Source: Eledone cirrhosa (taxonomy: Eukaryota). From it: a stretch of 64,000 nt of DNA. Under the pieces are notes generated by a model. The model was not told the DNA's origin, made no database searches, and worked only from the letters and a program-made list of their open reading frames with translations. Shown one piece after another: positions 25,705 through 60,200 of the stretch (the first letter of the stretch is position 1; every line of letters begins with the position of its first letter). Made by a program: the position numbers and the translations under genes. The stretch spans positions 239,878,001 through 239,942,000 of the forward strand of contig OZ024741.1 of the NCBI GenBank assembly GCA_964016885.1. Direction: 5' to 3'.

Positions 25705-25705
<1 letters not shown>
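24019..25705 (-). mobile_element. Penelope-like retroelement, 5'-truncated (RT C-terminus + GIY-YIG endonuclease)
   Basis: ORF 24514..25683 has RYIDDI, LPVLD, CKTRNLVYSI...TYIGETARSIGERIDQH and RQIREA..I...RPILNRKNEW. Confidence 0.88.
24222..24263 (-). ncRNA. Minimal hammerhead motif in the Penelope 3' terminal region
   Basis: Minus strand reads acca CTGACGA t gttg-cagatgta-caac GAAA gaac TT tgat; homologous motif at 17891-17933. Confidence 0.55.
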
Positions 25706-25739
<34 letters not shown>

Positions 25740-25740
25740 G

Positions 25741-25775
<35 letters not shown>

Positions 25776-25866
25776 GTATATATGTGTATGTATATGTATA
25801 TATGTGTATATATATATATATATGTATATATAGAAGAAATTAAAAGATCGTTAAAAAAGTTCTATA

Positions 25867-26555: not shown

Positions 26556-29500
26556 CATCATCATCATCGTTTAACGTCCATCTTCCACGCTAGCATGGGT
26601 CTGGATGGGAATTGTCCCACTTGAGGCAAGATTGGTTGTCTTGCTCAAAACTGTCTGGCGGGTTGTCTACGGCTGGATGCCCTTCCTAACATCAACCACG
26701 TTTACAGTGTGGACTGGGAGGTTTTTACCGTGTTACCTACACGGCCACATTACAGCGTGGACCGTGTGTTTTTTTTGTTGTGATACCTACACGACCTCAT
26801 TTATTTAGAACTGGATGTTGTGGTACCAACATAGCTTTACATTGAAAGGGGTGGTGTAGATGGTGGTGGGGTAGGGGTAGTGGGACGGGGGTGTATTTTG
26901 GTTAAGAGGTACCTACTGACTGTAGGTTTCGCTTTGTACTTAGGCAAGGCAGGTCTTCTGTATTACTGCGTAGCGCCAAAGATCTCGGTCCAGTGACATT
27001 GTCTTGGAGAGGTGTAAGTGTGTGAGGTCGGAATTTATCAAGTCATCCCAGGTTTTTCTGGGTCTGCCTACTCCGTAGCTACTGTCTATTTTGATCGCCC
27101 TGCACTTTGTTATACAGCTGTCGTCTTTCATGCGCATCACGTGGCCATACCAACGTAGTCTTCTCTCGAGTAAACAGCATCTGATCCCTCTTATTCCTAA
27201 TTTCTCCCTTAGTTCATTTATGCTTTGCCGTTCAAGTATATTACTATTACACATCCAACGGAGCATGCAAGCTTCGTTCCTCTCAAGTGTGCGTATATCC
27301 TCAGCACACAAGGCCCATGTCTGACTGCCATGTAACATCGCTGTTCGTATGCAGGCATCATACAGCCTGCCTTTCATTTTTAGAGAGAAACCTTTAGACG
27401 CCAATAGTGGTATAAGCTCGCTGAACTTTTTCCATCCCGTTCTGACTCTAGCTACAGTACTTTCGGAGCACCCTCCACCACTGCTGATTTTGTCACCCAG
27501 GTAACGGAAGGTGTCCACTATTTCTATAGAACCATCTTGGCAATGGAATGAGCTAGTATCCTGTGGGCATGTGCTGCTACTTAATGCACCTGAGCACCGG
27601 CCACATATAAAATCTATATTCTTAGTTAGCTTACCTGTGATCCCACTACATCTTTTATGCACCCATACTTTGCATTTGGGACATAAAATGGAGTTTCTGC
27701 CTACTCCTTTCCTACACACTGAGCATGGCCACTTCCCAGATGGGACCAGTGCTCTATTTTCCTTCCTACATATTAGAACTTTAGTCTTAGGCAAGTTAAT
27801 TTTAAGGCCTTTTGATTCTAGGCCATGCTTCCATGTTTGGAATTTCTTCTCTAGTTCAACTATTGATTCAGCTATGAGCGTTAGATCATCTGTGTATAGA
27901 AGTTCACATGGGCAGCCGGTCTTGAACTCCTCTGTTATAGCCTGGAGAGCGATAATAAATAGGAGCCCTGATGAACAACTTTTATGCTAAAGTCTTCACT
28001 ATATTCGTTGTTAATTCTAACTTTGCTGACTGTTTCATTATACATGGCTTCTATAGCTCTCACAAGCCATTCATCAACACCTAGTTTTCTGAGAGCCCAC
28101 CAGATAATGGAACGGGGGACTCTGTCAAAGGCTTTCTCCAAGTCAACGAAAGCTAAGTATAGGGGTTTACTTTTAGCTAGGTACTTCTCCTGTAGTTGTC
28201 GTACAATGAAAAGAGCATCTGTGGTACTGTTACCTGACACAAACCCGAACTGCATTTCATCTAGATCAATTCATTCTCTGATTAGTTGCGCTATTACTTT
28301 TTCTGTGACCTTCATGACCTGGTCGATTAATTTAATGCCTCTATAGTTTCCCCTATCTAGGGCATCTCCTTTACCCTTGTAGCAGTTAATGATGATGCTG
28401 CTACGCCAGTCCTTTGGTACAACCCCATTCTGTGACTTGGTTTACTATTCAGCATTTCAGCAACTATTTCCGAAGGCCCAGCTGCCTTGCCTGTCTTCAT
28501 ATCTTTGATTGCCTTACTTATTATACTACCTTCAACTTGCACTGCTGGTCCCTCTATTGGATCGATGTGGAGGAGACTGTCTTTCTCCCATTTATTCTCA
28601 TTTAGTAGCCTTTCGAAGTGACACTTCCAATCTACCTTCTTATCAGCGTCAGTGATCGCAAGTACACCATCACCATTACGGACACACTTCTCTCCGACAA
28701 TATCACGGTTTTCCTTGACACATTGCCTAGCAATCCTGAACACCTCACGTTTTTGGTCCTCGCGTTGTAGAACATGCTTGAACTTTCTTTCCTCTGCTTC
28801 CCTTCTTGCGAAGTACACTTCTCTCTTAGCTTCCCTCCTGGCCACTTGATAGTCTTCTCTTCTTCCCGCAATACTTTCCAAGCCTGCTTTTTGGCCTTGA
28901 TCGACTCCTCCACCTTACTGTTCCACCACCAAGTTACTCTCCTCCTGCCTATAGGTCTGCTCCAGCCACAGATTTCATCTGTCGCCTTCAGCAGGTTAGC
29001 TTTCAGGAATTCCCACTGTTCCTCTATATTGTACGACTCTAATTGCTCTTCCTTACTGTCAAAAGCATCAAGTAATATGCTTTTAAATTTATTACTGGCT
29101 GTGGGGTCCGTTAACTTCCATATTTTTCTCCTAAGGATAGTCCTCCTCTGTTGTCGAGTACGTCTCGTCCTGACTATGAGGTCGCTAACTGTGAGGCTAT
29201 GTTGTGAGGTGCATTCTTCATGGGGGAGGGATTTAGTGTTTACAACAGACACTCTGTCACGTCTTCTGGTAAGGATATAATCTATTTGACTGGCGTGTTC
29301 CCCTGATCTATAGGTGATCAAGTGATTGTCTCGTTTTTTAAAGTTTGTGTTACAGATCATCATCATCGTCATCTTCGTTTAATGTCCATTTTCCATGCTA
29401 GCATGGGTTAGACGGGAGTTGTCCCACTTGAGGCAAGGTTGGTTGGGTGACCGTGTCTTGCTCATATAGGACTATCTGGCAGGTTTTCTACGGCTGGATG

Positions 29501-34338: not shown

Positions 34339-34504
34339 CCAAAATTTCATGTATTTCCTTATAATCTTGTAGTTTTCCTTCCTTTAATGTATGGATGCTG
34401 CCCCTCTAAGTGGAGAGTGTTTCAGATGGGTAGTTAGAAACAAAAGTAGCATTAGCTTCTAAAGCATCATCATTAGAAGTTACTACAACTGGTTGACTGT
34501 TTTT
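34339..34504 (-). CDS. Protocadherin A tail exon 1 with in-frame TAG (KNSQPVVVTSNDDALEA...TLST*RGS...YKEIHEILG)
   Basis: ttttcaaacag| acceptor and TGG|GTAAGT donor; 166 nt, phase 0 to 1; stop at 34406-34408; clear paralog of 45406-45565. Confidence 0.85.
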
Positions 34505-34651
34505 CTGTTTGAAAATATTGTAACTAATTAATAATAAGGAAAATAAATTAGTCTAATTATAGAAAATACGTTGCACGATAAAGCTTAGATAAATATGTTT
34601 GTAAGAATAATTTTGTAGCAATTTAAATGTTTCAAGTAAAAATATTCTTAC

Positions 34652-36928
34652 CAATGAAGGTTTAGGAATGGTTCTGCTTTGGTTAGCAACAGGATTGTTA
34701 GACTGATACAACAATTGTTTCATCTCTGTTCTACCTTGGTATGCTGTAGTGTTTGTTGTAGTAGCTGTGTTATCTCTGTGTTTAATATATTTCATTATAC
34801 ACAGTGTTATAGAAACAATAGCCACTGATACTATTACTGCTGATGATACAATGATAATAACCCTTGTCATATGGACTGTATCTGAAGATTGTAAAGGTTT
34901 TTTTGTCTCATCACTAACAGCCAATACCAAAGTCACACTAGTTGTTGATGACTGAACTGGACTACCACTGTCTTTTACAACAAACTTTAGTTCATAACTT
35001 CCAGTATCATTTAGATAAACTTGTCTGGAGAATGATAAAGCACCACTGGTTGAGTTCATAGTAAACAACTGTGTATCATTTCCTTGTATGATTCCGTATG
35101 TGAGCAAAGCATTGATTCCACTGTCACCATCAAATGCTCTCAAAACTGTGATGTCACTCTTACTCTGGGGATGGTAGTTGACATTTAGGGTGTAAGGGTC
35201 AACACTAGGAAAGGTGAAATATGGAACATTGTCATTTTGATCGAAAATCTCAACAACAACATTAGCTGTATCATTCAGAGATGGACTTCCATTATCTTTG
35301 ACAAAAACTTCAAATTTATACACATCTTGTTTCTCTCTGTCTAATGACATGGTGGCTGAAATAAAGCCATAACTGGTGATCTGAAATGGTAGATTTGATT
35401 TTTCTTTATGTATCAGAGAATATATGAGTTGTCCAGCAGATCTAAGGTCAGGGTCAGTGGCACTGACAAAACCAATAGGGAAGTCTTTATCTTTGTTTTC
35501 ATAGGTCAGGAATTGGAATGTATCTTTGGTAAACTGTGGTTGTACATCATTGATATCAGTCACTTGGATAGAGAGAGTTTTAACACTTTTAAGAGGTGGT
35601 AATCCTTTATCTTGACATGAGACAGGAATGTTATAGTGTCCTTGTGTTTCTCTGTCTACTGGTTTGTTTAGAACTATTTTATATTCTTTAGATCCCATTG
35701 ACTGTAGTTTGAATGTATCATGTTTGATATCACAGCTGACCTCTCCATTTTGTCCAACATCATTGTCAGTGACTATCACATAAGCAATGAAACTACCAAC
35801 TTTAATATCTTCAGAAATGGTAGCTGTGTTGTCATTGATAGCAGAAACATAATCTATATCAATAGATGGAGGGTTGTTGTGTTGGTTTATAACATTTACC
35901 AGAACTGTTGCTATGGAACTGAGTGGAGGGTTGTCTCCTTCTCTAGCTTCTATAAACAGCTCATATACTGTCTTTTCATCCAATTTAGAATATTTAGTAA
36001 AAAATATTTCTCCAGTGTTTTTATTTAAATCAAAATATCTTTTTGATTGGCTAGAGGTTTTCGGGCTGAAATGGTAGGTAATGTTGCCATTTTCTCCAGA
36101 ATAAATGTCTGTCACTGATATAACTACAACTGGTTTCATTTTGTCATAATCTGTTCCGAGGGAAATATTATAAAGAGATTTAGTGAACAAATATTTATCA
36201 TTTACATCTTTGTCATTTAGAATATTGTCATTTACATCTTTTACAGAGATTAGAACATCCAAAGAACTCTCTTTAGGAGGAGATCCTCCATCTGTAGCTA
36301 TAACCTGGGCATTATAACTATCTCTTGCTTCCTTATCTAAGGATTTTTCTAGAACAATTCTTAATGACGATATGCCATCTGCTCTTTTAGAAACTGACAA
36401 AGAAAATGTTTCATCATGATTATTTTGAAGCTTGTATTTAATAAATGAGTTTTGGAATCCTACATCTCTATCTATGGCATTTGGTATTGATATCTTAAAA
36501 CCTTCTCCATCACTTTCTGAAAACTGAATACTAACTTTTTTAACAGGGAACTCAGGTTGATGGTCATTGATGTCTTTTATAATAACCTTTATTTTAAGTA
36601 TTTTTGTAAATGATTTTGTTTTACGCACAACTTTAATATATCTATAACATTCTTTGTTATATATACAAAGTGACTCTGCATCAAGTTTTTGAACAGTGTA
36701 TACTTTTCCTCCTTGGGTGACATTAAATAGTTGAGTAAATTTACGTTTTAGTTGATTGAATGTTATTAATTGTTGTTTGGAAGATTCAATGTTATCCAAG
36801 AGTTTTGAGTCTGCAGCAATGTCTGCTACATAAGTTCCTGGACTTCTCTCTTCTTCAACCTGATAGGTAAGGTCTATGGCATGATATTTTTGTAGGAAAA
36901 ATATTATGAAGGATAATGATAGGAACAT
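34652..36928 (-). CDS. Protocadherin A, large coding exon (signal, 6 EC, TM)
   Basis: ORF 34553..36964 with the same motifs as B. Acceptor ttttcattacag| gives exon edge 36981, ATG at 36928 (MFLSLSFIIFFL), donor TTG|GTAAGA at 34652. Confidence 0.93.
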
Positions 36929-37303
36929 CTTGCTTGCAGTTGTGATAATGATGAAAGGGGTCAATTTATCAAGAATATTACCTGTAATGAAAACAAAACA
37001 ATGTTAGACTATAACATTTTTTTCATTCTCAAGAAATATAAAAGAAAATGCAATTGTAAGCTTTAAGCTTGTTTATTTTACAGCAACTGAAAACCTCATG
37101 CTAAATTGTTGTCAACACTTTCTCAGATAAATACATTCTAGGGATTAATGAGTATGAGCATTATCTGAGCCAAATCTACCCTCAGAAATTTTGTTTAGAA
37201 ATATTGTTGTTGTATGACTTATCTAAGCTTAATTATTCTGTCACAGGGTATGTAAGAGAATAATTAAACTTAAACAAGTCATAGGTAACACAACAGTAAT
37301 AAT

Positions 37304-37491
37304 TGTTTCTACTTTAGGCACAAGGCCAGCAATTACCCAGTGCATTACTGGTACTTTATTTTATCGACCCCGTAAGGATGAAAGGCAAAGTCAACCTCGG
37401 CAGGATTCGAACTCAGATCGCAAAGGGATGCAACTATGCTGGAAAGCATGGCGTCTGACCCTCTACCGATACTGCCAATCCACCGCCTTCC
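37304..37491 (-). mobile_element. tRNA-derived SINE (Meta-domain-like core)
   Basis: B-box GAGTTCGAATCC; core GCCTTTCATCCTTACGGGGTCGATAAAAT..GTACCAG; 16-bp TSD acacaacagtaataat. Confidence 0.85.
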
Positions 37492-39804
37492 ACACAACAG
37501 TAATAATGATTTCTACATATGCATCCCAATCAGTACTGATAGACATATATAAGAATTGTTTCAGTCTCCTTGATAATGAATGACAGTGACCTTGTTATCG
37601 TGACTAATGACTAATAGACATTTTGAGCAATGTCAACATGGCTATTCCAATGTACATATATAGTTTCAATAGTTGTTCTCTTTGATGGGTCTACTTGGGC
37701 TAGTTCCTCCCTATCCCATGCATTTTCCAGAAACCTCTCAAAGTAACATTTTCATATTAGAGCAAATGCACTGCCACCATTCTATACAAACTCCCAACAA
37801 CTTAATTCACATCGACACACTGCTTTCAAATATGTGATGCCTCATACCTCTGATCTCCTCAATGTAAACCTTTTACTTTCAACTTCTCTCTGCACAGGAG
37901 ACAGAAGCATCTCTAAATAATTAACCTTAGTGATTTATCTTTTTCTAAATATGCTTATATTCCATGCCTATATCTAAACTATAATAAAGCAAGGGCTGCG
38001 GGACTGCATACGGTTTATTTCTTTTAATCCAGTTAGTAAAATAAGTTGAATTACTTTGAATAAATAATGAATGAATATTACATAATTTATGTGCTAAATT
38101 TCGTAAACAAATAATTTCATAAAAATAAACAATCTAAAATTGACTTCTTTTCAAAGTTGCACTTCCAGTATATCGTTGCCACCACCACATCAACTACCAT
38201 ATATAGAGAAAGAGAGAGTGTGTGATGAGAGAGATAGAGAGATTATGATTTTCTACACACTAACACGTATGAGTGTGCACATACATACATCTATATGTAT
38301 GAGTATATAATCGCGCAAACACAAACTTATAAAAATATACACTCACAGACATAATTCACACAAATACACATACTTTCACACAAACATACATACATTCACA
38401 CATATACATTTACACAAACACACATATAAAGTCATGATAGCATTCAATTTAATTGGAAATGGGAGGGTGAAACAAGTATAACGTTTTATTTATTTATTAA
38501 CTCTTTTTTTTAAAACTCATTTAATATAACTAGCAGAAAAACCACAATTCGGGTGGTTTTCTGTTAGCTTGTGTATATAATATTGTACATCTACTTATGA
38601 TAATCTTATTCCAAATTTGGCCAGTACAATAAAGTCTATACTTTGAGGAGGAGGTCTACTATGACCCAAAACATGTTGAACGTTATCTCCAGTATTTACC
38701 AAAATGTCTAGATATTAAGATTAGTCACTAAGCCAAGGGTAGTGGATTGGTAGAACATTGAATAAAATGCCATGCAGTATTTGTTCTGGGTCTTTACGCT
38801 GAATTCAAATTTCACCAAGATCAACTTTGCTTTTCATTCTTCCCAGGTTGATAAAATAAAGTACCAGTCAAGAACTGAGTTGACTGAATTAACTTTGCTC
38901 TTTCCTCAGATTTTGCTGACCTTGTGCCTAAATTAAAATTCAATATTAGTCACTAAGTTAATATCTTTTCTTTGCTGCATTATCCAGTTTAATACCCCCA
39001 CCTGACCCTTGGGTGCTTTTAGCAGAGTCCACACCACTGCAAGATTGGGCCAGGTTACTGGTTTGAGGATAAATTCTTCCATTTTCCCCATCAGTCATTC
39101 AGGCCACAAAAAAGCCATGCACACTTCCTTTTCTCCTGACTGAATCACAAAAATTCTAATTTGGTATTTAATTTTCACTATATTAAATATACTAACATTA
39201 ACTTAAATATTATTTTTCAAGCAGATAACATCTCTAATTAACCTCAGTGATTTCTATTTTATAAATAAACCAATTCTAACAGACTACTTCTATTGGTGTC
39301 AACTTTGTAGTAGTGTGAGTAAAAACAATTCTGCTCATAACTGAGATTTCATTTTTGGCTTCATATTCAACCCTTTCATTACCATATTTCTAATGAAATA
39401 CATTGTTTTAATTAATTAATAAAAATTATAATTGTGTTTTAATTAATTAATAAAAATTATAATTTTATTTAGATGGCATTTGTAACATAACAAAACATAG
39501 ATGGCATTTGTAACATAACAAAACATTCTTATATAAAATTGTTGGAAGGATTTAATTTATATTGGAACCCTTTAAAATAGGGGGTTTTGTTTCATAGAAA
39601 CAGGCAGTTTTGTGTCGGTTGGTATCAAAAGAGTTAAGGTTATACTGGTAATAAGGCTGTCTAATAAAAATGTATTACTCTAGATATAAATTTGAAGAAT
39701 TATCCGCTACTCTTCCCTCCATGTATGTAAATGTATAAACACAATTCTCTGACAAATCAGAGCTAATACCTAAATAACAATATTGTATTCAATTTTATAA
39801 TATA

Positions 39805-40384
39805 CTAGCAGTGGTACCCGGCGTTGCACGGGATAAGGTATTGTGAAATATATAACCGCCTTAGTATTGCCACAACCACGGCTGGCAAAGAAGTAAGGGT
39901 CTGGTGGTACGTAAGTAAGCAACACTGTGGCTTAAAACGTGAGGAAGAAGTTGTGTGCACTTACCAACTGTTTGGGGAATGAGTGTGAGATTTGTCTTGA
40001 GCAAGGGTGGCAGAATAACTGGAGGCAGCAGACAGCCAGACATACAGACAGATATTATAAAGGCGCGTTCTGGACGCAGAGCAAATTGTAGGAAGTGACG
40101 TAATGCAGACAGCCAGACATACAGGCAGATATTATAAGGGCGCGACGTTATATGTATCTATCTAAAAAGAGAAAGACTAAGAATTGTAGAGAGAAATTGC
40201 TAAATCGCCTAATGCAGTTCCTAGGGCATTGAAAATTTGAAGTTTTATTTGCTCAGAACACTCCCTGAAACATAAGTATTACATGTGTAAAGTTTGAAAA
40301 CAGTCGGTTGGGTGGTTCTCTAGTTTTAGGGATTCAAACTCACAGACACCGAGACAGACATCCTCAGTTTTATATATATATAGA
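39805..40384 (-). mobile_element. Non-autonomous Helitron
   Basis: 5' TC, 3' hairpin CCCGTGCAACGCCGGG + CTAG, inserted between A and T, no TSD. Confidence 0.8.
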
Positions 40385-41169
40385 TGAAAAATTTTAACTT
40401 ATATTTCAAACTTGCATGGAAAATATAATATTTAAACCTAATTAATTATTATTGTTTTTACATACCTATATACAAACTTGAGAATGTTTAATATATAAAT
40501 GAAAATATGTGAATGAATTAAAACCCATTTATGAGAATAAAATAAAATTTAAATATCAGAGTGGTATTTAAAAAAAATTATAATCAGTAAGAGAATAAAT
40601 CACAACAGATCTAAACATTATTTTAGAATTAAAAGCTTATAGTCCATTAATGTTTTGTCATATTTACAAATAAAAATTGATAATAATTTTTCATGTTCCT
40701 TGTTATAAACAAAATAATTAAAAATATATTTTTTATATTAAATTACATAAAGATAATACTCAGAATATATTCATTGTTAATAACCTGACATCAAGGATTT
40801 AAAAAAAAAACTTAAGTCTAACTATAGGCAAGTACACGTCATCAGATTCTGCCATTTATATTCAATGTCTGATAGCTGAAAATTCTAATCTATTCACAAT
40901 TAAATCTCACAGAAAACTACCAGACGCTTTTCAACATCTGTTATTTAGCTAATATTTAAACTATATCTTGGTATTTTCGTTGGGCATAAACTAGTTTATT
41001 CTGTAAATAAACAGTCAAATTATGAACAGTCAAATTATATGATACTAAAACTGAAAAAGATTCTTCCAAATCCAAAGCAGTAACACACAATAATAGCTAA
41101 ACATCATATTTTCATTACAGAAACAACATACTGAGACATACTTTAGTTTTAACTATCCATCTATCTATC

Positions 41170-41203
<34 letters not shown>

Positions 41204-41419
41204 AGAATATTATTTGTAAGAAACTAGCATAGAAATATGATTTAATAATCTAATTTGCACAATATAATATTTGACATAAAAATAACATAAAAATAAAGTA
41301 CATAAAAATAAGGTACTGTAAATATTTCTTTGTTTATACTTCTTTGTACATATTAAAAATAACTAATCATTTTTTGTGTAAGAAAAATATAAACATTTGA
41401 AAAATGTAAATGGACTTAC

Positions 41420-41560
41420 TTTAATCATAAAATTAGATTTTTGTAACTTGAAATAAACCAGTCAACTGTAACTACTACTGCTGTTATGTCTCTGCTGGTG
41501 CTGTAACAACAGCTCTTTGGTGATAAACTAGATGAGGAGCCTGCTGCAACATTTAATTTG
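41420..41560 (-). other. Candidate non-coding first exon of PcdhA (5' edge unknown)
   Basis: AAA|GTAAGT donor at 41420, 948 nt past the B stop; TG-rich sequence upstream. Confidence 0.4.
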
Positions 41561-42264
41561 GTTACGTATGGGTGTGTCTGTGTGTATGCATATTATATAA
41601 GCAATATCAAATTTAACTTGAGGGGTGGATAAGTGTGTTTGTATATATATTTATATATATATAGAGAGAGTTATACCCTGAATTAAATGCTCTTGTTTTT
41701 CATCCACTCATATTTGTTATTAAAATGCATCTTCAGGTTTTCACGTATTTAACTATATAATAGCAATAACATTTGCCAATATAGTCAGAATACTTGATAA
41801 TCTTATAGAATTCTCTTTTTCAATAATATAAAAATAATCATACTACAAAAACTTGCTTTAAAAATATGACCTACTTAGTAGTTTGAGAGACATCAAAATG
41901 ACAAAATTGGAGCAACAAAAATAGTAGAGTGATGGAGTAAATTCCCTTTAGTTTCAACTTTTCATGTTCTGAGTTCAAATCCTAGAGTAGATTTTGTCTT
42001 TCATTTTTCCAGTGTGGATAACATAATAGTCTGTAATGTACTAAGGTTGTTTTATTCAACTATACTCTTTCCTTACAAATATGTAGCTTTCTTCTAACTA
42101 TTATTGTTATTATTACAACACACTGATTTAATAGAAAACATTTAACTGTCAGACTGACATTTTTTACTGAAGGAAGATTTAACTTCATTCAAATTATCTA
42201 ACATATAAATATGAAGCAGTTATGTTAGAAAGCTATTTCTGAAGAGAATTAATAAATAAAAATG

Positions 42265-42296
<32 letters not shown>

Positions 42297-42367
42297 CAAT
42301 TGTTATTAAATTATCTCTATTCTGAATAATGTTTGCTTCCCTATACGAGATACAGTGTTATATATCA

Positions 42368-42447
42368 TTATGCGTGTTTTAGGTAGGTTTCCTGGCTCTG
42401 ATCTTTTTTCAAAGTACAATCTTCATTGTTCTTGTACGTACTGTTTC
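42368..42447 (-). CDS. Protocadherin B terminal coding exon (GNSTYKNNEDCTLKKDQSQETYLKHA*)
   Basis: ttttctacatttcag| acceptor; phase-1 frame runs open to TAA; 80 nt, same length and ETYxKHA* end as the paralogous exon 51638-51717. Confidence 0.82.
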
Positions 42448-42774
42448 CTGAAATGTAGAAAATAATATATTGTAAAGTTAGAAAAATGAAAATATATTAA
42501 TAAAAAAATTATTGATGCCCAACATATTATTTATTCCAACATACAAGTTACAAAATATTTATATAAAATTTATCAACATCTAATAGTTTTTACTTCATAA
42601 ATATTTTTGATATTATTTGTTTACTTAACACTTAATCTTTTTTTACTCAATTATGTTAAGTAATATCCAATAAGTCATTGTGTTGTTAGATCCCCATTTA
42701 ATGCTTCCTTTTAAATTGGAATGGCAGATTTGAGGCATAACAAAGCAAATTAAAGAAACATTCACAAGCTATAT

Positions 42775-43322
42775 CTCCACATGTCTAACACCAGTGTGCA
42801 TGCCAACAAAGTAAAAAAACAGCACAGCTCCCATGACTTTCGGAAACATTTTTTCACGCTCAGAGTTGTGGAAGCATGGAACAAACTCCCCGCATCAGTT
42901 ATTAGCTGTCGAGACACTGCATCCTTTAAAACCTCCATGCTTCCTGAGATTCGCCAACACTACATGTAATATTCCCCCTCCATACACACGCACACATGTA
43001 TATCATGACTCAAACACTATTCACTTCCCTGACATTTGTACATTATTCGGGTAGTGGATTAGCAGTATCGGTAGAGAGTCGGACGCCATGCTTTCCAGCA
43101 TGGTTACATCCTTTTACGATCTGAGTTCAAATCCCGCCGAGGTTAACTTTGCATTTCATCCTTTCGGGGTCGATAAAATAAAAATAAAGTACCGGTAATG
43201 TACTGGGTAATTGGTGGCCTTGTGCCAAAAGTAGAAACAATTATTCTATGTACTATACATGCACCTTTGATGAGTTGTAGTGCACCTAAGCACTGTACAC
43301 AATAATTTCATTATTATTATTT
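42775..43322 (+). mobile_element. CR1/L2-group LINE 3' end, interrupted by a SINE
   Basis: FRKHFFTLRVVEAWNKLPASVISC..ASFK; 3' UTR ends (ATT)n; uninterrupted copy at 3420-3518. Confidence 0.75.
43049..43239 (+). mobile_element. Same SINE family, inserted in the CR1/L2 3' UTR
   Basis: TSD attattc; empty-site version at ~3439-3450. Older or partial copies at ~38735-38935, ~41930-42090, ~55670-55770 and 60955-61015. Confidence 0.85.
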
Positions 43323-43594
43323 TTTAATTTTTTATTATGAATTAAACTTCATTGTCAGAGACAGTGTGCAACAGCTGTATCAGGATACAAACCATTGATC
43401 TTTTTAGCCAGAATTTTAAGATTGTTTTCATAAAGAAATTTGCAATCCCCAATAATATATTACGAAAATACTTTTAATTTATGGTAGCAAACACATTTTC
43501 TTCTTAGTTAAGTTAAAGTACATTTAATCATCAATTATAACATTTAAAACAGAATAGGCAATATTTGAACAAATAAATATATATAAACACACAC

Positions 43595-43635
<41 letters not shown>

Positions 43636-43725
43636 TATGTAGGAGGTGAGTTTTATTGTAGCACAATAAAGCAATGCAAATATCGAATAACTAGCACTCA
43701 ACAGTTTATAGAACTGGAGTATAAA

Positions 43726-44117
43726 TAATATAAGAACAAAAGATGGTTAAAAGAGTTCCATGTATTTTATTATGCGCATTTCAAAAACAAATATCATCAT
43801 GGGATGATATTTGCGTTCTCATCATATAAAATAGGGAGACATGATATGAAGCTTAAAAAACACTTGCGAGCAGTGAAGAGTTAAATCAACATTGTGTTTT
43901 TTTAAGCTTCATATCATGTCTCCCTATTTTATCTGATGAGAACGCAAATATAATCCCATGATGTGTTAAATCAACATAAGTGTTTTTTAAGCTTCATATC
44001 ATGTCTCCCTATTTTATCTGATGAGAACGCAAATATCATCCCATGATGATATTTGTTTTTGAAATGCGCATAATAAAATACATGGAACTCTTTTAACCAT
44101 CTTTTGATCTTATATTA
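43726..44117. repeat. ~140-bp inverted repeat with an internal partial tandem copy (Penelope pLTR-like foldback)
   Basis: 43726-43865 is the reverse complement of 43978-44117; 43880-43963 is a partial direct copy of the right arm. Confidence 0.85.
44010..44080 (+). ncRNA. Minimal type I hammerhead ribozyme (Penelope pLTR type)
   Basis: Stem I tattttat/ataaaata; core CTGATGA 44018-44024; long stem II; GAAA 44061-44064; palindromic stem III ATGCGCAT; UA cleavage site after 44072. Confidence 0.8.
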
Positions 44118-44143
44118 TATATAAATATATATATATATATATT

Positions 44144-45115
44144 CTAGCATTAAAGCCCGGCGTTGCTCGGGATCAGTAAGTTACCAAAGTTAGGTTGCAG
44201 CACCCATTTTATGGCAGCACTTTTTTGTCTGCCAGGCACTGGGTGAATGAATTGCAGACCTGGACCAGCAGTGACAATTGTAGTTTCGCCTATTGATATT
44301 ATCTCTGTGCAAAGAAGTGTTGAAATTTATTGTTTCACAGTACTTGCGCAACACGCGTGTAGACGATGCCAGCCGAACAACAGAGCTGCGATGGAGTTGT
44401 TCTGCATGACATGTTTTAACGGGGGAGGGGCAGAATGAGGGAACCGCAAACAGGGGCCTGAAACATTGTCGAATTATGAGAACCAAAAAAGAGGAAGAGG
44501 GGTTGTATGGTTGGTGCATCATGTACGTCGGACGTAGAAGATGAACCTGCTGCTGTGCCAACGGAGAGAGGGAAATAGAGCTGAGCGGAGGCCTGGTGTT
44601 GGTGAAGTGTGAAGTAATTGCAGGGAACCGCCTAAAAATGTAAATCCTGTCATTAAAGCATTGATCACCCTTTGAGAGTCGTACGGAGGTGAAAACCCTG
44701 GCAATAATATCATGCCGATGACAGTCCTGCTGCCCTGGGAGAAGTTCCCGCGTAACCTCAACCCACTTGGGATTACACGTAAACGTGATGAATAAATCGG
44801 GGCGCCCATAATGCCGAACGAACGTCATAGCGTCCTGTGTTCGCTCGTGCATGTACCGCGGTCCCCCCATATAGGTTGAGGGGAGAATGCACATTTTGCC
44901 GATGTTCCGGGGGTCAGTATCATTCCTGATGCCGTCATGCAAATGTATGTGGGAGTCTGAGCGCAGCTGCTTCTGATTCAATTTTATGAAGCACAGTCTC
45001 TCTGACTCCATCTTTGCAGTCATATCAACTGCAAACTGGTGAAACAGTTCCCGTGACCTGTGCAGGGTGGTGCTGAAATCGTTAGGCCTCGTCATGAAGC
45101 AGTAGGAGTATAGAG
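44144..45115 (-). mobile_element. Helitron fragment (Rep domain + 3' terminus)
   Basis: LFHQFAVD..ILPSTYMGGPRYMHERTQDAM..YGRPDLFITFTCNPKW..RHDIIARVF; 3' hairpin CCCGAGCAACGCCGGG followed by CTAG at 44144. Confidence 0.9.
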
Positions 45116-45118
45116 TAA

Positions 45119-45159
<41 letters not shown>

Positions 45160-45405
45160 TGTGTGTATTGAATAATGAAAATAAAACAAAAGTCTAAGAC
45201 AGGCTCTTAATTAGTTCATTGAGTTCTAATGTTATAGACCCCACAATATACAGGTAGATATCAATATATTATTAAACATTAAACAGAAAAATAAGAAACG
45301 TCTAACACTAGTATCATATCTAAAATTTACTTTCTATTTAAAATTTTTTCAATAATTAGTCTAAATCATAAGAACTATTTTGATTTAGATATTATTATTA
45401 ATTAC

Positions 45406-45565
45406 CTGACATGTCTGGTATTTCTTCATAATGTTTCATATTTCCTACACTCAATCCATGTCCATTATTTTGTGAAGATAATGTGTTTGTTGGATATGTT
45501 GATGTCAGACTAGTTGCTTCAACAGCATCATCATTAGATGTCACCACAACTGGTTGACTGTACTT
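45406..45565 (-). CDS. Protocadherin B cytoplasmic tail exon 1 (KYSQPVVVTSNDDAVEA...KHYEEIPDMS)
   Basis: ctttctatacag| acceptor and CAG|GTAAT donor; 160 nt, phase 0 to 1, open frame; paralogous to 34339-34504, 52282-52434 and 21574-21732. Confidence 0.88.
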
Positions 45566-45680
45566 CTGTATAGAAAGTAAAGTAAAATAAAACGAATTGA
45601 ATATTGCCGCTTTATATGAAGTTTAAAACTCTTTTCTTACCAGATGTTCAATAAAATGCACAGTATTTGAATTAATTAAT

Positions 45681-45866
45681 TGTTTCTACTTTTGGCACAA
45701 GGCCAGCAATTACCCAGTGCATTACTGGTACTTTATTTTATCGACCCCATAAGGATGAAAGGCAAAGTTAACCTCGGCGGGATTTGAACTCAGAATGGCA
45801 AGGCCGTAACTCTATGCGTCAAAGCATTGTGCCCGATCTTCTACCGATACTGCCAATCCACCGCCC
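45681..45866 (-). mobile_element. Same SINE family, in PcdhB intron
   Basis: 17-bp TSD tatttgaattaattaat at 45664-45680 and 45867-45883. Confidence 0.85.
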
Positions 45867-46119
45867 TATTTGAATTAATTAATGAAGAATTTCAAGTGAT
45901 TTTTGTAACAGAGCAAAATGTTGTTATATAAGATTATGCTGGAAGGTGTTGACTTGAATAGGAACTCTTGAAATGGGCAGCTGTGTTATTAAAGGCAGTT
46001 TGTGGTAGGCTGGTATCAAAAGGGATGACTAAAATGAAATTAGTAATATAAACAAGCACACAAGAGGTTTTGCAGTCTCTAAATTTAAATACATAAGTAT
46101 AAAATATTTTACAACTTAC

Positions 46120-48516
46120 TGCAGTTGGTTTTGGTAAAGTTCTTGACTGAACTGAAGCTTCATATTTATTCTGTAGCTGACCTTCTGAATAACATTCACT
46201 CTTTGATCTCTCAGAATATATATTTCTTTTTATCATCTCTTCTGTATTCCTTGACATAGCAACAGGATTGTTAGACTGATACAACAATTGTTTCATCTCT
46301 GTTCTACCTTGGTATGCTGTAGTGTTTGTTGTAGTAGCTGTGTTATCTCTGTGTTTAATACATTTCATTATACACAGTGTTATAGAAACAACAATAGCCA
46401 CTGATACTATTACTGCTGATGATACAATGATAATAACCCATGTCATATGGACTCTACCTGAAGATTGTATAGGTACACTTTTCAACATTGGTGATGTCTC
46501 ATTACTAACAGCCAATACCAAAGTCACACTAGTTGTTGATGACTGAACTGGACTACCACTGTCTTTTACAACAAACTTTAGTTCATAACTTCCAGCATCA
46601 TTTAGATAAACTTGTCTGGAGAAGGATAAAGCACCACTGTGTGAGTTCATAGTAAACAACTGTTTATTATTTCCTTGTATAATTCCATATGTGAGGAAAG
46701 CATTGTTTCCACTGTCACCATCAGATGCTCTCAAAACTGTGATGTCACTCTTACTCTGGGGATGGTAGTGAACATTTAGGGTGTAAGGGTCAACACTAGG
46801 AAAGGTGAAATATGGGACATTGTCATTTTGATCTAAAATCTCAACAACAACATTGGCTGTGTCATTCAGAGATGGACTTCCATTATCTTTGACAAAAACC
46901 TCAAATTTATACACATCTTGTTTCTCTCTGTCTAATGACATGGTGGCTGAAATAAAGCCATAACTGGTAATCAGAAATGGTAGATTTGATTTTTCTTTAT
47001 GAATCAGAGAATATGTGAGTTGTCCAGCAGATCCAAGGTCAGGGTCAGTGGCATTGACAAAACCAATAGGGAAGTCTTTATCTTTGTTTTCATAGGTCAG
47101 GAATTGGAATGTATCTTTTGTAAGCTGTGGTTGTACATCATTGATATCAGTCACTTGGATAGAGAGAGTTTTAACACTTTTAAGAGGAGGTAATCCTTTA
47201 TCTTGACATGAGACAGAAATGTTATAGTGTCCTTGTGTTTCTCTGTCTACTGGTTTATTTAGAACTATTTTATATTCTTTAGATCCCATTGACTGTAGTT
47301 TGAATGTATCATGTTTGATATCACAGCTGACCTCTCCATTTTGTCCAACATCATTGTCAGTGACCATCACATAAGCAATGAAACTACCAACTTTAATATC
47401 TTCAGAAATGGTAGCTGTGTTGTCATTGATAGCAGAAACATAATCTATATCAATAGATGGAGGGTTGTTGTGTTGGTTGATAACATTTACCAGAACTGTT
47501 GCTATGGAACTGAGTGGAGGGTTGCCTCCATCTCTAGCTTCTATAAACAGCTCATATACTGTCTTTTCATCCAATTTAGAATATTTAGTTGAAAATATTT
47601 CTCCAGTGTTTTTATTTAAATTAAAATATCTCTTTGATTGGCTAGAGGTTTTCGGGCTGAAATGGTAGGTAATGTTGCCATTGGGTCCTGAATCTTTGTC
47701 TGTTACTATCAAAGCAAGAATAGACTTTGTTATGTCATGTGTGGTTCTAATGGAAATATTATAAAGTGGTTGTGAAAATACAGGTGGATTATCATTCTCA
47801 TCTTTCACTACAATCAGAACATTTAACACACATTGTTTAGATGGGGAACCCCCATCTTTAGCAATAACTTCTAAATTGTATTTCTCTTTTATCTCTCTGT
47901 CTAATTTATCTTTTAAAACAATCTTTAATGAGGAAATACCATCAGCTCTTTTAGAAACTGACAGAGAAAATAAATCATCAGATTTTTTAAATTTATATTC
48001 AATAAAAGAATTTTTGAAACTAATATCTTTGTCTATGGCATTTGGGATTGATTTCTTCAAACCTCTTCCACCTATTTCCTCAAATTGTAAAGTGATTTGT
48101 TTTTCTGAAAATTCTGGCTCATGGTCGTTAATGTCTTCTATTACTATTTTGATTTTTAATATTTTTGTAAATGATTTTGTTTTCCGAACAACAATTTTAA
48201 TAGTTCTAGAACATTCTTTGTTATATATACAAAGCGATTCTGCATCTAGTGTCTGAGCAGTGTATAGTTTTCCTGTTTTGGTGACATTAAAATACTGTGT
48301 TAATTTTCTTGTTAGTTGACTAAATGTTACCATTTGCTGTTTAGATGGTTTAACATTGTCTAACAACTTAGAATCAGCAGCAATATCTGCAACATATGTT
48401 CCTGGACTTCTCTCTTCTTCTATATGATAAGTTAGATCTATGCTGCAGCATGTGTGAAACACTGACAAGATGATATATAGTGTGAACCACATAATTATAT
48501 TTGGTTTTTGCAACAT
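46120..48516 (-). CDS. Protocadherin B, large coding exon (signal peptide, 6 cadherin repeats, TM helix, juxtamembrane)
   Basis: ORF 45934..48561. EC1 C-x5-C (LCIYNKEC); linkers DINDHEP, DENDNPP, NQHNNPP, DINDVQP, DQNDNVP; LDRE/VDRE motifs; hydrophobic TM VIIIVSSAVIVSVAIVVSITLCI. Acceptor ttcttgcag| gives exon edge 48547, first ATG at 48516, donor GCA|GTAAGT at 46120 (phase 0). Confidence 0.95.
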
Positions 48517-48773
48517 TTCACAATTATCCGAATAGTTATAATTTAACCTGCAAGAACACAAAAAAAACTTTTGTGAAAATATGAACTGGATAACAACATC
48601 AAAACAAAGGAGGAATCTCCTTAAGACCGCTGTAATTCTTTATCGATAGTTTCTGATAATGTATTTTACTGAGAAACATTTTGAAAACTCTGTGTGTGTG
48701 TGTTTGTGTCTATGCTTGTATACACATGCATGTATGTCTGTGTAGTAGGAGTAGGAATAATAATAATAATAAT

Positions 48774-56200: not shown

Positions 56201-57201
56201 TAGTAAACTAAACATATAAAGCGATTAGCTGCATGCTGCTAGTTATGAAAGTAACTCGGAGGAGGAAATGTAGTGGATAAGAGAATCAGTATTATCCTTT
56301 GGCATTCTGAGTTCAAAATGTGATATTTGACATTTAAAAAAATATAAAAAGAATTACAATAGAATAACTATAGATTAAATATGGATTAGTTTTACCACAC
56401 AATTCTATGGGAATGTTTTCAATTATATATACAAAGTCTCTATTTCAAATCTAGTGCCAATTAACTTACCAAGTCCAAAGTTTGTTATTTCAAATAATTA
56501 CAGTTTAAGATTAAAAAAAGTTAAATTTAGAAACAAAAGTTTTATATCTGGATCTCTAACCTGTGACTGGTGGAAAAAAACCTGGACAAACAAGCACATT
56601 ATTTATAATATTCATAAACTTAGATAGAGTTTTGTGTTATATGAAGTGAATTAGGACCCTTTCAAGAAATGGGAAGAGGGTGTGAAAAGATTTGAGAGGG
56701 GCAGCAAAAAAATAGAGAGGAGTTGAAATGACTAGGCATTAGGTACACCTAAATTCATCTGTTCCAATAGAAATTCAGTGTTGCAAGCAATTCAAGACAA
56801 TTCAAATTGACATGAGATTTTAAACCTCTGAGGGAAGCTTGTCCATGAAGACTGTACTTTGGGCATTGGGTTAGTAGAGCAACTTACATTACATTTGGAA
56901 TATAGATCTATATTGAAAAGCTACTCCATTGGAGCTCAAATATAAATATCCCTAGTTTTCTCAAGCTAAAGTTTTCTTTTCTTCTACTTTGCAATTTCAT
57001 TTATAAAATTATATATATATATAATAATATATGTAGTAATAAACACAGTAAATCGTGTGTCTAAAATTAGGAGGCTTGAAATACTGTGTTTATTGCTACA
57101 TATATTATTATATAATGCTCAGTATTTATACTTTGAGCTTATTAATTACAGGGTATCAATAGGAGTTATTAACTCTGCCTTTTATTTGTATATATGTATA
57201 T

Positions 57202-60200
57202 TTCGACCTCACTGACAAGGATGGGTGGCACATTTTCTTCCTGTTGGAGTGACGGCAACAGCTGCACATTCCCGGCAGACTTGAAGAGCTTGGTGTAGAA
57301 GTCTTCGCAAACCTTTTCCACCTCACTCTTGTCGCTGACCGGTACTCCAGCTGTGTTTTTAAGAGTCGTCACCTCCGATCTGTACATTGTCATGTCCCTT
57401 TCGCAGTTCTTGAGGCTCTTCTTTTCCTTTGCGGTCTTCAGGAGCTTCTCCATCCGGTATGCCTCGAAGTCTCTCTTCAGTTGACGTATCACTCTGCTGA
57501 GAAGGGAATATTCGAGGTGATCTTCAGGTGTCCTCTTCATATTCTTCCTCTTCTTAAGCAACTTCATAGTTTCCTCCGAGACTCTTCCCTTTCCGCTCCC
57601 TTGGGCACACACCCTTAGCCTTCCTCAAGCACTCCTTCAGTTTCCTTATCAGTGAGTCGTAGTCAGCGTCTATGCCGTCTCCTTGACGCCACTTTTCCTG
57701 CATAATGGCTTCCTGCAACTGCGCCTCGTTGAAGACCCGGACGCATTCTCCCTTCTACGCCAAATGCAGCACCTTCTTCTCGCTCGTCCAGTCGATGACG
57801 ACCCTCGCCCTCACCAGACGATGATCACATCCAGTGTTGAATGGTGTTATGATGGAGACGTCCTGTAGTATGCGTCGCTTGGCGACCAAGATGTAGTCAA
57901 TCTCGTTTCGGTGCTCAGAATTTGGCGATACCCAGGTCCATCTCTTCTCCTTCTTCCTGAATAGGCTGTTTCCGATGTAGAGCCGTCTCGCCTCCACCAT
58001 GGTGAGCAGACGCTCTCCTCTCTCATTTCGCTCTCCGAGGCCGAATCTTCCGACATATTCTTCCCCTTGCCGTCCCTGTCCAACCTTTGTGTTGAAGTCT
58101 CCCATCACGATAGTGTAAGTGGACTTCACAGCTAGCACTTTGTCTAGCTGGCAATAGAATTCTTCCACCTCATCGTCGTCGCTGGCACTTGTGGGAGCGT
58201 AGGTCTGGACGATCTTGAGGGTGGCCTTCCCTGAGAGGTTCACGTTCAGTACACCAATCCGTGATGATATGAACTGGCAAGAAGCGACCTTCGAAGCCCA
58301 TTCCCTGCTTACAATGAACCCTATACCTCCGACCGATCTGGCACCCTCTGCTTTCCCGAGTCTCAAGGCGCATCCATCTTGCCATCGTGAACTCGCCTCC
58401 TTCTTCTGGCGGATCTCGCACAGCCCTAACACGTCGCACCTGATCTTCTTCTTCTCCTCCATTAGGTGGTTCAGTCCTTGCCCCCCCTGCCAAAGATCTG
58501 CAGTTGTAGGTGCATATGGCAAGGTTAGTCCTGTCCCTTGGCGGCCTTCGGGAACCTGTGACTCTTAGCAGCCTCTCGTCGCTCAGGTTGCACTCCGCCG
58601 TCGTGGAGTGGCCCGATTGACGCGCAGGGTACTGAGGCCCTTTTCTTTGTGCTGTTTTAACCATAAGATGACGCCACATCACTGGCTGGGCGGGCAGGCC
58701 GGTACCTCTTGAGTTTAGCTAACTTTTGAACTCTAGAAGATGATGAATCATCTCTAGGACCAATAGTCTGATACCTGTGTAGCATGGTAAAACCTGCCAG
58801 GACATTGAGTCCCGCTACCATAGCTATCAGACAGCCAGGGTCACCCCTGCGCCACTTTTGAGGCACTGAAGTAGGATTTTGCCACCCATCCTTGTCGGTG
58901 AGGTCGAAAGAGCCGTCGGCTTGATGAAAAGCAGAAAGGCGCCAAGGAAAGGCGGCATAACATCGGAGGTGTTGAAGTCAGGCGGAGAGCAGCTCTGGAA
59001 AATCCTCGCCGACCAATTCACACACTATCTGGACGAGGGAAGAATACCCTCACAGTGGAAAGAGTCGAATACCATCCTGCTATACAAGAAGGGCGATAGA
59101 GAAGATCTGAAGAACTACCGACCCATATACCTGCTGTCTCAGGTGTAGAACCTGTTCACAAAAATAATCCTGAACAGGTTATCATGTCATCTGGACGAAC
59201 AGCAACCGAGAGAGCAAGCCGGCTTCCGGAAAAACTACAGCACGATGGACCACATATTTACTCTGACACAACTGCTTGAGCAAGCAAAAGAGTGCAAGAT
59301 GCCTCTTTGCGTCGCGTTCATAGACTACGAGAAGGCCTTCGACAGCGTCGAAATCAACGCAGTGCTGAACTCGCTGCAGAGGCAAGGAGTCGAGGTGCAA
59401 TACGTTCAACTGCTCAGGGGGGCGAGTTTCGGATGCACCACCGACATAGCTCTGCTGTCATCACCCATACGAGTGCTGGTCGAGAAGAGAGTGAAGCAAG
59501 GAGATACGATCTCTCCAAAACTTTTCACCGCGTGTCTCGAGCAGATCATCAGAGGCATTGACTGACAAGGCGGTGTCAACATCAACGGCGAGATACTTAC
59601 CCATCTCCGTTTCTCTGATGACATCGTACTCATCGCTGAAACTACGGATCAGCTTCAGACCATGCTGGTGGAGCTCGACATCAAAAGCTCTGCAGTAGGC
59701 CTCAAGATGAACCGCATGAAAACCAAGTTCATGCAGTCCGACGACGTACCAACAGGTCGAATGGTGGTTGGCGGTGATGAAATAGAGGAGGTGGAGGAAT
59801 ACGTCTACCTGGGACAAGAAGTGAACATGCGCCGAGACATTGAGAGGGAGATCTTACGGAGAGTAAGCGCCAAATGGAAGGCGTTCAACGGCATAAGGGA
59901 TGTGCTCAAGGGGAGGTTGGATAAGACCACCCGCGCCAACCTCTTCAATAGCACAGTTTTACCTGCAATGTTATATGGCAGTGAAACTTGGGCTACAACG
60001 AAGAGAGAAGAGCAGAGGCTGGTAACGGCTCAAAGAGCCATGTAGAGATCAATGCTGGGAATCTCGTTGAGAGAGCACATCAGGAGCGAAGTCATCAGAC
60101 AGAAGTCCGGCGTGATGGACGTCATCACGGAATATATGCGCAGCAAGTTCAGATGGGCTGGACACGTCGCCCGGTTCACCGATAATCGGTAGACCTGCAC

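What the first reader, a model, noticed from the sequence alone, without database searches (positions are those of the whole stretch)
34684..47682. Sharp ~1.4-kb gene-conversion-like tract between PcdhA and PcdhB (mid-EC3 to juxtamembrane)
Seen: from NGNITYHFSPKT (A 36091, B 47682) to LLYQSNNPVA (A 34684, B 46257) the genes are almost identical, including most synonymous sites. Signal, EC1, EC2, the first half of EC3, introns and tail exons are clearly diverged. Established: vertebrate clustered Pcdhs homogenise membrane-proximal ECs by conversion while keeping the specificity domains (EC2-EC3) divergent. Inference: an independently expanded cephalopod array follows the same rule.
Basis: partly seen in the sequence, partly recalled or inferred. 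Interest (0 to 1): 0.7.

Follow-up and report, generated by a model that had tools for sequence, protein, structure and literature searches.

The report
Octopus protocadherin overwritten by its neighbours
Two old, very different octopus-type nerve-cell adhesion genes share an almost identical membrane-side half because the 32 genes of their row most likely keep copying that half onto each other, while the outer half that likely sets binding specificity stays distinct, a pattern known from vertebrate brain protocadherins that seems to have arisen separately here.

Summary
The step is real: A and B differ at 207 of 756 bases before A 36092/B 47683 and at 47 of 1404 after it. It is not one pairwise tract. 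A and B are the two edge members of a 32-gene protocadherin sub-array whose EC4-to-cytoplasmic half is homogenised array-wide. B keeps an orthologous 5' half and tail exon around a species-typed middle. That is concerted evolution, most likely by recurrent gene conversion, as in fugu protocadherins but without raised GC3. A then diverged: 17 replacement against 2 silent private codons, three new EC6 glycosylation sequons and a truncated tail. Conversion was already suggested for whole cephalopod genes. I found no domain-level report, but three key papers were not held. This scan noted the array pattern before on neighbouring DNA.

The parts
34652..36981 (-). Gene A large exon (ATG 36928; signal, EC1 from 36877, EC2 36550, EC3 36187, EC4 35863, EC5 35533, EC6 35218, TM about 34861-34796, donor at 34651)
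   Evidence: ORF; Pfam Cadherin_2 + 5 Cadherin; boundaries; contig loose end at 36981 and splice joint
46120..48547 (-). Gene B large exon (ATG 48516; EC1 48441, EC2 48111, EC3 47781, EC4 47454, EC5 47124, EC6 46809, TM about 46437-46369, donor at 46119)
   Evidence: orthologues P0001 (O. vulgaris) and P0003 (Argonauta)
34684..36091 (-).
46120..47682 (-). Homogenised half of B; shared with A down to 46257 and with the rest of the array to the splice donor
35966..36086 (-). The only A/B-specific patch: 18 minority alleles shared with B, 12 with B alone (B counterpart 47557-47677); inferred direction B to A
   Evidence: EC3b distance 0.031 to B, next 0.193; B orthologues carry this EC3b type at 83-87% aa
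36092..36928 (-). A's unconverted 5' half: an old lineage with no close copy found
   Evidence: best other own-genome match 74% nt among 40 scored; best protein match 66% among 120 listed of 168
34652..34684 (-). Net 35-codon in-frame deletion point in A, followed by an exon end sharing 10 alleles only with paralog g59 (G000:C2:239.95 Mb)
36191..36241 (-). A-specific small tandem duplication (+9 codons net) that disturbs the EC2-EC3 calcium-linker motif
   Evidence: motif role is established cadherin knowledge, recalled
35009..35080 (-). Three N-glycosylation sequons in A's EC6 (Asn codons at 35080, 35056, 35011), each in 1 of 80 sub-array proteins from four species
34339..34504 (-). A tail exon after a 147-nt intron; stop at 34408-34406 removes the HYEE[IL]P motif kept by 31 of 31 other sub-array genes
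45406..45565 (-). B tail exon after a 554-nt intron; orthologous type (28 of 32 identical to P0001, 18 of 33 to the core type P0008)
47344..47394 (-). 51-nt EC4 patch (A: 35753-35803, one difference) identical in 71 of 82 genes across sub-arrays

Best explanation
A and B are old paralogous protocadherin genes at the edge of a 32-gene tandem sub-array, and their shared half is most likely the sum of recurrent germline gene-conversion events that keep EC4 to the cytoplasmic start nearly identical within a species, while EC1(end)-EC3 keep older lineages that likely carry binding specificity. Shown: the synonymous step; the same step in three sub-arrays; species-specific 3' halves against trans-species 5' halves; B's orthologue-paralogue-orthologue sandwich; A's mosaic of a B-type EC3 patch, array-type EC4-EC6 and a g59-type exon end. 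Inferred: the exchange is conversion (non-reciprocal copying or double crossover); the EC3 patch went from B to A; tracts that would break matched EC1:EC4 and EC2:EC3 contacts are selected against, which keeps the middle diverse. After it was overwritten A left the homogenising pool and was remodelled (relaxed or changed selection).
For: Mean pS within sub-array S3 (32 genes): EC2 0.44, EC3 0.37-0.41, EC4 0.07, EC5 0.06, EC6 0.03. S2 (43 genes): 0.49, 0.40-0.46, 0.07, 0.05, 0.06. S1 (8 genes fetched): 0.37, 0.18-0.38, 0.12, 0.04, 0.06. Between sub-arrays EC5/EC6 pS is 0.32-0.60, so these silent sites are free to change. EC4-cytoplasmic aa identity is 0.974-0.984 within species and 0.886-0.913 between, whereas EC2-3 is 0.72-0.80 within and 0.73-0.79 between (32 own, 10 O. 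vulgaris, 15 O. sinensis, 23 Argonauta units). On 31 rows the EC4-cytoplasmic tree needs 2 species-label changes (the minimum) and rejects a clade of B with its orthologues (p-AU 1.4e-4); the EC1-3 tree needs 10 and rejects an own-species clade (p-AU 4e-9). B's EC1 is 0.91 to P0001 against 0.84 to its best paralog, its EC4-cytoplasmic part 0.99 to a paralog against 0.93, and its tail exon is again orthologous. Only 5 of 496 S3 pairs share 1 kb or more upstream at 88% or better. The single-copy neighbour g56 matches its orthologues at 0.90-0.99 (Octopus) in every domain. The top long-range covarying pairs are EC1 89/EC4 348 and EC2 173/EC3 310, in the own set and in Argonauta (permutation p 2e-4 each). 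That is the pairing of the vertebrate antiparallel dimer (PMC8901172 passages).
Against: GC3 is not raised in the homogenised half: EC4-6 0.278 in S3 and 0.289 in S2 against 0.293 in three single genes, unlike fugu. A PHI-like test was significant for S3 whole exon and EC2-3 (p 0.001) but not for EC4-cytoplasmic (0.06, 0.08) nor for S2 EC2-3 or whole exon (0.28, 0.54). The own-species clade in the EC4-cytoplasmic tree has only 86/69 support. The 31 tree rows were picked by me after seeing a first tree (11 of 32 own, 8 of 10 O. vulgaris, 9 of 23 Argonauta, 3 outgroup). Cross-species data are protein only. The covariation permutation ignores relatedness of the genes, is weaker in O. vulgaris/sinensis (p about 0.01), and the pairs map near, not onto, the known vertebrate salt bridges. 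Conversion cannot be told from repeated unequal crossover within the core by these data. No binding data exist for these proteins in the papers I could search.
Confidence: 0.87

Rival explanations
1. Recent whole-gene duplications followed by fast divergence of EC1-EC3; no conversion needed.
For: Some recent whole-unit duplicates exist (5 of 496 pairs; g84-g87 and g64/g67 share intergenic DNA at about 96%). A recent burst at 8-14 Ma is published (PMC9795677 passages).
Against: Silent sites in EC1-3 are near saturation for A vs B. EC1-3 lineages are shared with Octopus and Argonauta. A and B flanks do not align. B has orthologous sequence on both sides of the homogenised part.
Confidence: 0.03
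2. Assembly or polishing collapse made the 3' halves look alike.
For: In runs X3 and X4 the contig over A's junction carries five letters that are B's (my reading), so short-read contigs do confuse the two copies, or a second allele exists.
Against: A and B differ at 47 of 1404 bases, and every gene has its own set of differences. A contig of run X1 spans 35940-37100 with 0 differences, 151 nt into the tract (may be the assembly's own sample). The same pattern appears in separately assembled Argonauta and Octopus proteins.
Confidence: 0.02
3. Nucleotide-level purifying selection (for example RNA structures for A-to-I editing) keeps EC4-EC6 alike.
For: A 51-nt EC4 patch is identical in 71 of 82 genes across sub-arrays and folds as a hairpin (z -3.1). 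Editing is reported as enriched in octopus protocadherins (10.1101/714394 passages).
Against: Constraint would make orthologues alike across species, but the 3' half is species-typed and differs between sub-arrays at pS 0.32-0.60. The hairpin is not kept in S1 or in most distant protocadherins, and the patch is not a family-wide outlier.
Confidence: 0.03
4. Conversion is real but the diverse middle is passive: EC2-EC3 diverged past the similarity needed for exchange, and no selection on recognition is involved.
For: pN/pS in EC2-EC3 is 0.2-0.5, not above 1. The deepest EC1-3 lineages are about 30% apart in DNA.
Against: EC2-3 of S3 is itself recombined (p 0.001), yet distant residue pairs stay matched: acidic 89 with basic 348 in 15 genes, neither in 13, mismatched in 4 of 32. 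The same boundary recurs in three sub-arrays and in other octopods.
Confidence: 0.2
5. A arose by a single unequal crossover joining an old 5' half to B's 3' half.
For: One very sharp breakpoint at 36092; A and B are neighbours.
Against: A's intron, tail exon and downstream DNA are not B's. B-diagnostic alleles stop at 35966, EC4 is nearest g59 (0.003), and the exon end is g59-type.
Confidence: 0.05

Closest known systems
Regional gene conversion in vertebrate clustered protocadherins (fugu Pcdh2 alpha/gamma subclusters, PMC1852091 section 7 read; Xenopus/mouse/zebrafish dS by domain, PMC4978886 passages; Noonan et al. 2004 seen only as cited)
   Same: Sub-clusters with a divergent 5' part and a nearly identical 3' part, a discrete boundary near EC4, converted parts divergent between sub-clusters, and highest dS in EC2-EC3.
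   Different: Whole genes, each with its own tail exons, and no shared constant exons. GC3 is not raised (fugu 54-69% vs 38-45%). Identity is 97-98%, not over 99%. The 5' part of EC1, the short intron and the tail exon are also homogenised in the core. The expansion is independent of the vertebrate one according to the literature.
Coleoid cephalopod protocadherin sub-arrays (Albertin 2022 PMC9068888, Styfhals 2019 PMC6339937, Jiang 2022 PMC9795677; passages read)
   Same: [quoted passage not shown]
   Different: The passages read give no domain-level analysis. Jiang 2022 has 0 occurrences of 'conversion' and dates a recent burst from pairwise gene distances.
Antiparallel EC1-4 trans dimer of clustered and delta-2 protocadherins (PMC8901172, PMC5115871; passages)
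   Same: Covarying pairs here link EC1 with EC4 and EC2 with EC3, and include a charge swap.
   Different: By sequence alignment to gamma-B4 (my count) the pairs fall several residues from the published salt bridges. No structure or binding assay for a cephalopod protein turned up (0 papers).

Membership tests
Protocadherin (6 EC, TM, large exon) | Cadherin_2 EC1 plus five cadherin repeats, TM, ectodomain on one exon | tested here: met
Coleoid clustered protocadherin sub-array | Head-to-tail full genes with close octopod relatives | tested here: met
   32 same-strand genes in 0.31 Mb; 91% to O. vulgaris, 84% to Argonauta over residues 60-560
Regional concerted evolution / gene conversion | Sharp drop of synonymous divergence within the exon | tested here: met
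Regional concerted evolution / gene conversion | Paralogs closer than orthologs in the tract, reverse outside it | tested here: met
   (protein level)
Regional concerted evolution / gene conversion | Raised GC3 in the converted part (supporting sign used in fugu, not defining) | tested here: not met
Regional concerted evolution / gene conversion | Recombination signal among copies | tested here: inconclusive
   significant in 2 of 6 region-by-array tests
Regional concerted evolution / gene conversion | Non-reciprocal transfer seen in pedigrees or populations | not testable with these tools
   needs phased long reads of several animals
Vertebrate clustered Pcdh alpha/gamma | Variable exons spliced to shared constant exons | tested here: not met
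   each of 32 genes has its own tail exon; A splices to its own
Vertebrate clustered Pcdh recognition system | Strict homophilic antiparallel EC1-4 trans binding | tested here: inconclusive
   covariation fits; binding untested
Vertebrate clustered Pcdh recognition system | Promiscuous EC5-6/EC6 cis dimers and stochastic expression | not testable with these tools
   needs biophysics and single-cell expression

The most novel reading that the evidence does not exclude
Octopods independently evolved a two-key recognition code (matched EC1:EC4 and EC2:EC3 patches shuffled by conversion on a constant EC4-tail chassis). Gene A is an old outsider that was captured onto that chassis with matching keys and then turned into a modifier: three new glycans on EC6, a disturbed EC2-EC3 calcium linker and a tail without the conserved tyrosine motif would make it a non-signalling, chain-terminating or decoy protocadherin.
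Probability: 0.2. Interest if true: 0.78.

Novelty: new variant of a known kind. Interest (0 to 1): 0.5.

Why it matters
It shows that a separately expanded invertebrate protocadherin cluster follows the same domain rule as vertebrate clusters. That points to EC1-EC4 homophilic recognition in octopus neurons and names residue pairs and natural chimeras (A, g59, g89) with which to test it. It also warns that whole-gene trees and dates for cephalopod protocadherins, such as the published 8-14 Ma burst, are likely biased young, and that orthology should be read from EC1-EC3 and tail exons. A shows how a divergent neighbour is drawn into, and then leaves, a homogenising array.

Tried and rejected
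Complex prediction of two copies of B's EC5-EC6 gave no answer (score 0.00, alignment not used); it is not used either way. An EC1-4 dimer was not predicted. GC3 test negative. A GENECONV-like run test (236 of 465 pairs at p<0.01) is not relied on, because rate differences along the exon inflate it. The idea that the 51-nt EC4 patch is a family-wide RNA-editing hairpin was followed and not supported: z near 0 in S1 and most distant genes, rank 7 of 143 windows, and no Ser-to-Gly variant of the motif among the stored proteins. No RNA holder is listed on record; run X2 behaves like spliced RNA but is unlabelled. Contigs over A's deletion point and over B's junction have only 30 letters on one side, under the tool's mark of 31, so they are not counted as bridging. 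Contig depth was not used as copy number. No orthologue of A's 5' half was found; P0002 is two fused distant genes. Not held and not read: Albertin 2015, Wang and Ragsdale 2017, Noonan 2004; they or their supplements may already describe part of the domain pattern. No supplements were opened. Searches for a prior domain-level report in cephalopods: 13 papers; 9; 0; 2; 0; none seen in listings or in the passages read.
Full report
Observation. Both genes are six-EC protocadherins on the minus strand. Their DNA alignment switches from about 27% to about 3% difference at A 36092 / B 47683 (207 of 756 vs 47 of 1404; chi-square 273.5 vs at most 21.1 in 2000 permutations). Silent sites follow the step (pS 0.56-0.60 before, 0.03-0.10 after). 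Introns, tail exons and 2-kb flanks differ or do not align.

Context. A protein search of the own genome with the tract scored 90 of 2124 candidates. 32 of them, all on one strand in G000:C2:239.91-240.23 Mb, are 92-100% identical to it, and A and B are the last two of that row. I fetched all 90 exons and aligned them by codon. They include sub-array S3 (32 genes), S2 (43 used) and S1 (8 fetched; more were seen later and were not added to the dS table). In each, pS is high in EC2-EC3 and falls at the EC3/EC4 border, while between sub-arrays EC5-EC6 pS is 0.32-0.60. In the S3 core the first two-thirds of EC1, the roughly 180-nt intron and the tail exon are also near-identical. So the array rule is 'EC4 onward', and the mid-EC3 border is particular to A and B.

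Anatomy of A. A's 5' half has no close copy: 74% nt at best among 40 scored own-genome matches and 66% aa among 120 listed proteins. Its EC3 second part is 0.031 from B and at least 0.193 from all 88 others; its EC4 is nearest g59 (0.003). Alleles shared with B (18, of which 12 with B alone) lie only at 36086-35966; ten alleles at 34679-34652 are shared only with g59. The tract is therefore a patchwork from several donors or times.

Cross-species test. B has orthologues in O. vulgaris, O. sinensis and Argonauta. Among 80 S3-type units, EC4-cytoplasmic identity is 0.974-0.984 within and 0.886-0.913 between species, while EC2-3 identity is alike within and between. In 742 of 992 own-genome comparisons for EC2-3, but only 22 of 992 for EC4-cytoplasmic, the paralog is less alike than the gene's best Octopus match. 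With 31 rows that I chose after a first tree, the EC4-cytoplasmic tree gives one group per species (2 label changes; own group only 86/69) and rejects B-plus-orthologues (p-AU 1.4e-4). The EC1-3 tree needs 10 changes and rejects an own-species clade (p-AU 4e-9). B's and g59's tail exons are again orthologous types (28 of 32 and 30 of 32 identical to P0001 and P0122). Orthologue-paralogue-orthologue along one gene needs two switches, which is what conversion gives and what duplication or a single crossover does not. The single-copy neighbour g56 shows no such pattern.

Artefact check. A contig of run X1 spans A's junction (35940-37100) without a difference. A contig of run X2 skips exactly the predicted intron 34505-34651, so A appears to be transcribed and spliced, though the run is not on record as RNA. 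X3 and X4 show B's letters at five sites in A's EC3, which may be contig merging or a second allele. All four runs come from one study and may include the assembly's sample. Other junctions were not bridged by the tool's standard. The independent assemblies of other species are the stronger argument.

Results against. GC3 is not raised. The recombination test was significant in 2 of 6 cases. pN/pS in the variable domains is below 1.

Why the middle stays diverse. Following a lead from an earlier scan note, I tested covariation. The top long-range pairs are EC2 173/EC3 310 and EC1 89/EC4 348, in 30 own genes and in 23 Argonauta units; permutation p is 2e-4 there and about 0.01 in 25 Octopus units (relatedness not modelled). 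Acidic 89 goes with basic 348 in 15 genes, neither in 13, mismatched in 4 of 32. A and B both carry a basic 89 with Asp348 and a basic 173 with Leu310, so the patch that A received left its pairs matched. EC1:EC4 and EC2:EC3 are the contacts of the vertebrate antiparallel dimer (PMC8901172, PMC5115871 passages), but by alignment the pairs sit near, not on, the published salt bridges. Selection for matched recognition surfaces is thus likely but unproven.

Fate of A. In EC4 to the deletion A has 17 replacement and 2 silent private codons, against 34 and 29 in the other 31 genes (Fisher p 0.006, two codons beside a deletion left out). It has five in-frame indels of its own, an altered EC2-EC3 linker, and a tail stop that removes a motif kept by 31 of 31 neighbours. 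It gained three EC6 sequons found in 1 of 80 proteins and lost two found in 77 and 79 of 80. Three or more gains arose in 12 of 20000 simulations for EC6 and 37 of 20000 for EC4-stalk, a test chosen after seeing the data. EC6 is the cis interface in vertebrates (PMC12337331 passages). The kept frame argues against a dead gene; decay under relaxed selection and remodelling both remain open.

Known and new. The pattern matches fugu sub-clusters closely (PMC1852091 section 7) and the dS ranking in Xenopus and mouse. These genes are not members of the vertebrate clusters (no constant exons). Conversion has been suggested for whole cephalopod genes. A domain-level, cross-species demonstration was not seen in five searches, but Albertin 2015, Wang and Ragsdale 2017 and Noonan 2004 were not available. 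A published recent burst rests on pairwise gene distances without mention of conversion. The organism is an octopod by protein similarity only. Earlier notes of this scan describe the same array pattern on neighbouring DNA; they are not counted as support.

Verdict. Real, well supported, a convergent variant of a known process; interest 0.5.

Noticed in passing
window 47344-47394 (B), 35753-35803 (A); L032, L033, L034, L080, L190: A 51-nt EC4 patch is identical in 71 of 82 genes over 1.6 Mb, including lineages about 30% apart; the longest shared run is 52 nt and the next 12. It folds as a hairpin (z -3.1). A gene 94 Mb away (L190) differs by 6% there against 34% overall. It may be a swept short conversion tract or a local RNA constraint.
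   Followed up: partly
L034 (G000:C2:240.28 Mb), L197, L202: Short tracts cross sub-array borders: g89 has an S2-type EC4 (about 5% nt) in an otherwise 20-35% distant gene; L197 shares about 60 nt of EC1 and L202 about 90 nt of EC6 with an S2 gene.
   Followed up: partly
window 35009-35080 and 34339-34504: Gene A has three unique EC6 glycosylation sequons and a stop 67 nt before a further intron, which could invite nonsense-mediated decay (rule recalled).
   Followed up: partly
window 35939-36041: Contigs of runs X3 and X4 join A's 5' half to B-type letters at five sites; either contig merging or a polymorphic, more recently converted allele.
   Followed up: no
G000:C2:240231724-240232718 (L117-L118): A 3'-only, frameshifted protocadherin fragment at the 5' end of sub-array S3, 100% identical to g63 over about 200 codons.
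   Followed up: no
L164, L166, L168, L193, L206, L207 (contig C7) and C2:251-253 Mb, 331-339 Mb: Further protocadherin groups lie far from this cluster, some on another large contig. Across 43 diverged representatives, EC6 windows have the highest silent identity, suggesting older homogenisation of EC6.
   Followed up: no
window 44193-45206 and 43720-44123: Between A and B lie a 338-codon ORF that looks like a Helitron helicase fragment (label recalled, not tested) and a 146-nt inverted repeat pair, 98% complementary.
   Followed up: no
window 24517-25839, 26943-29378, 57172-60042, 62262-63998: Retrotransposon-like ORF fragments (RTE/LINE- and Penelope-like by recalled motifs, not tested); several copies repeat within the window.
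   Followed up: no
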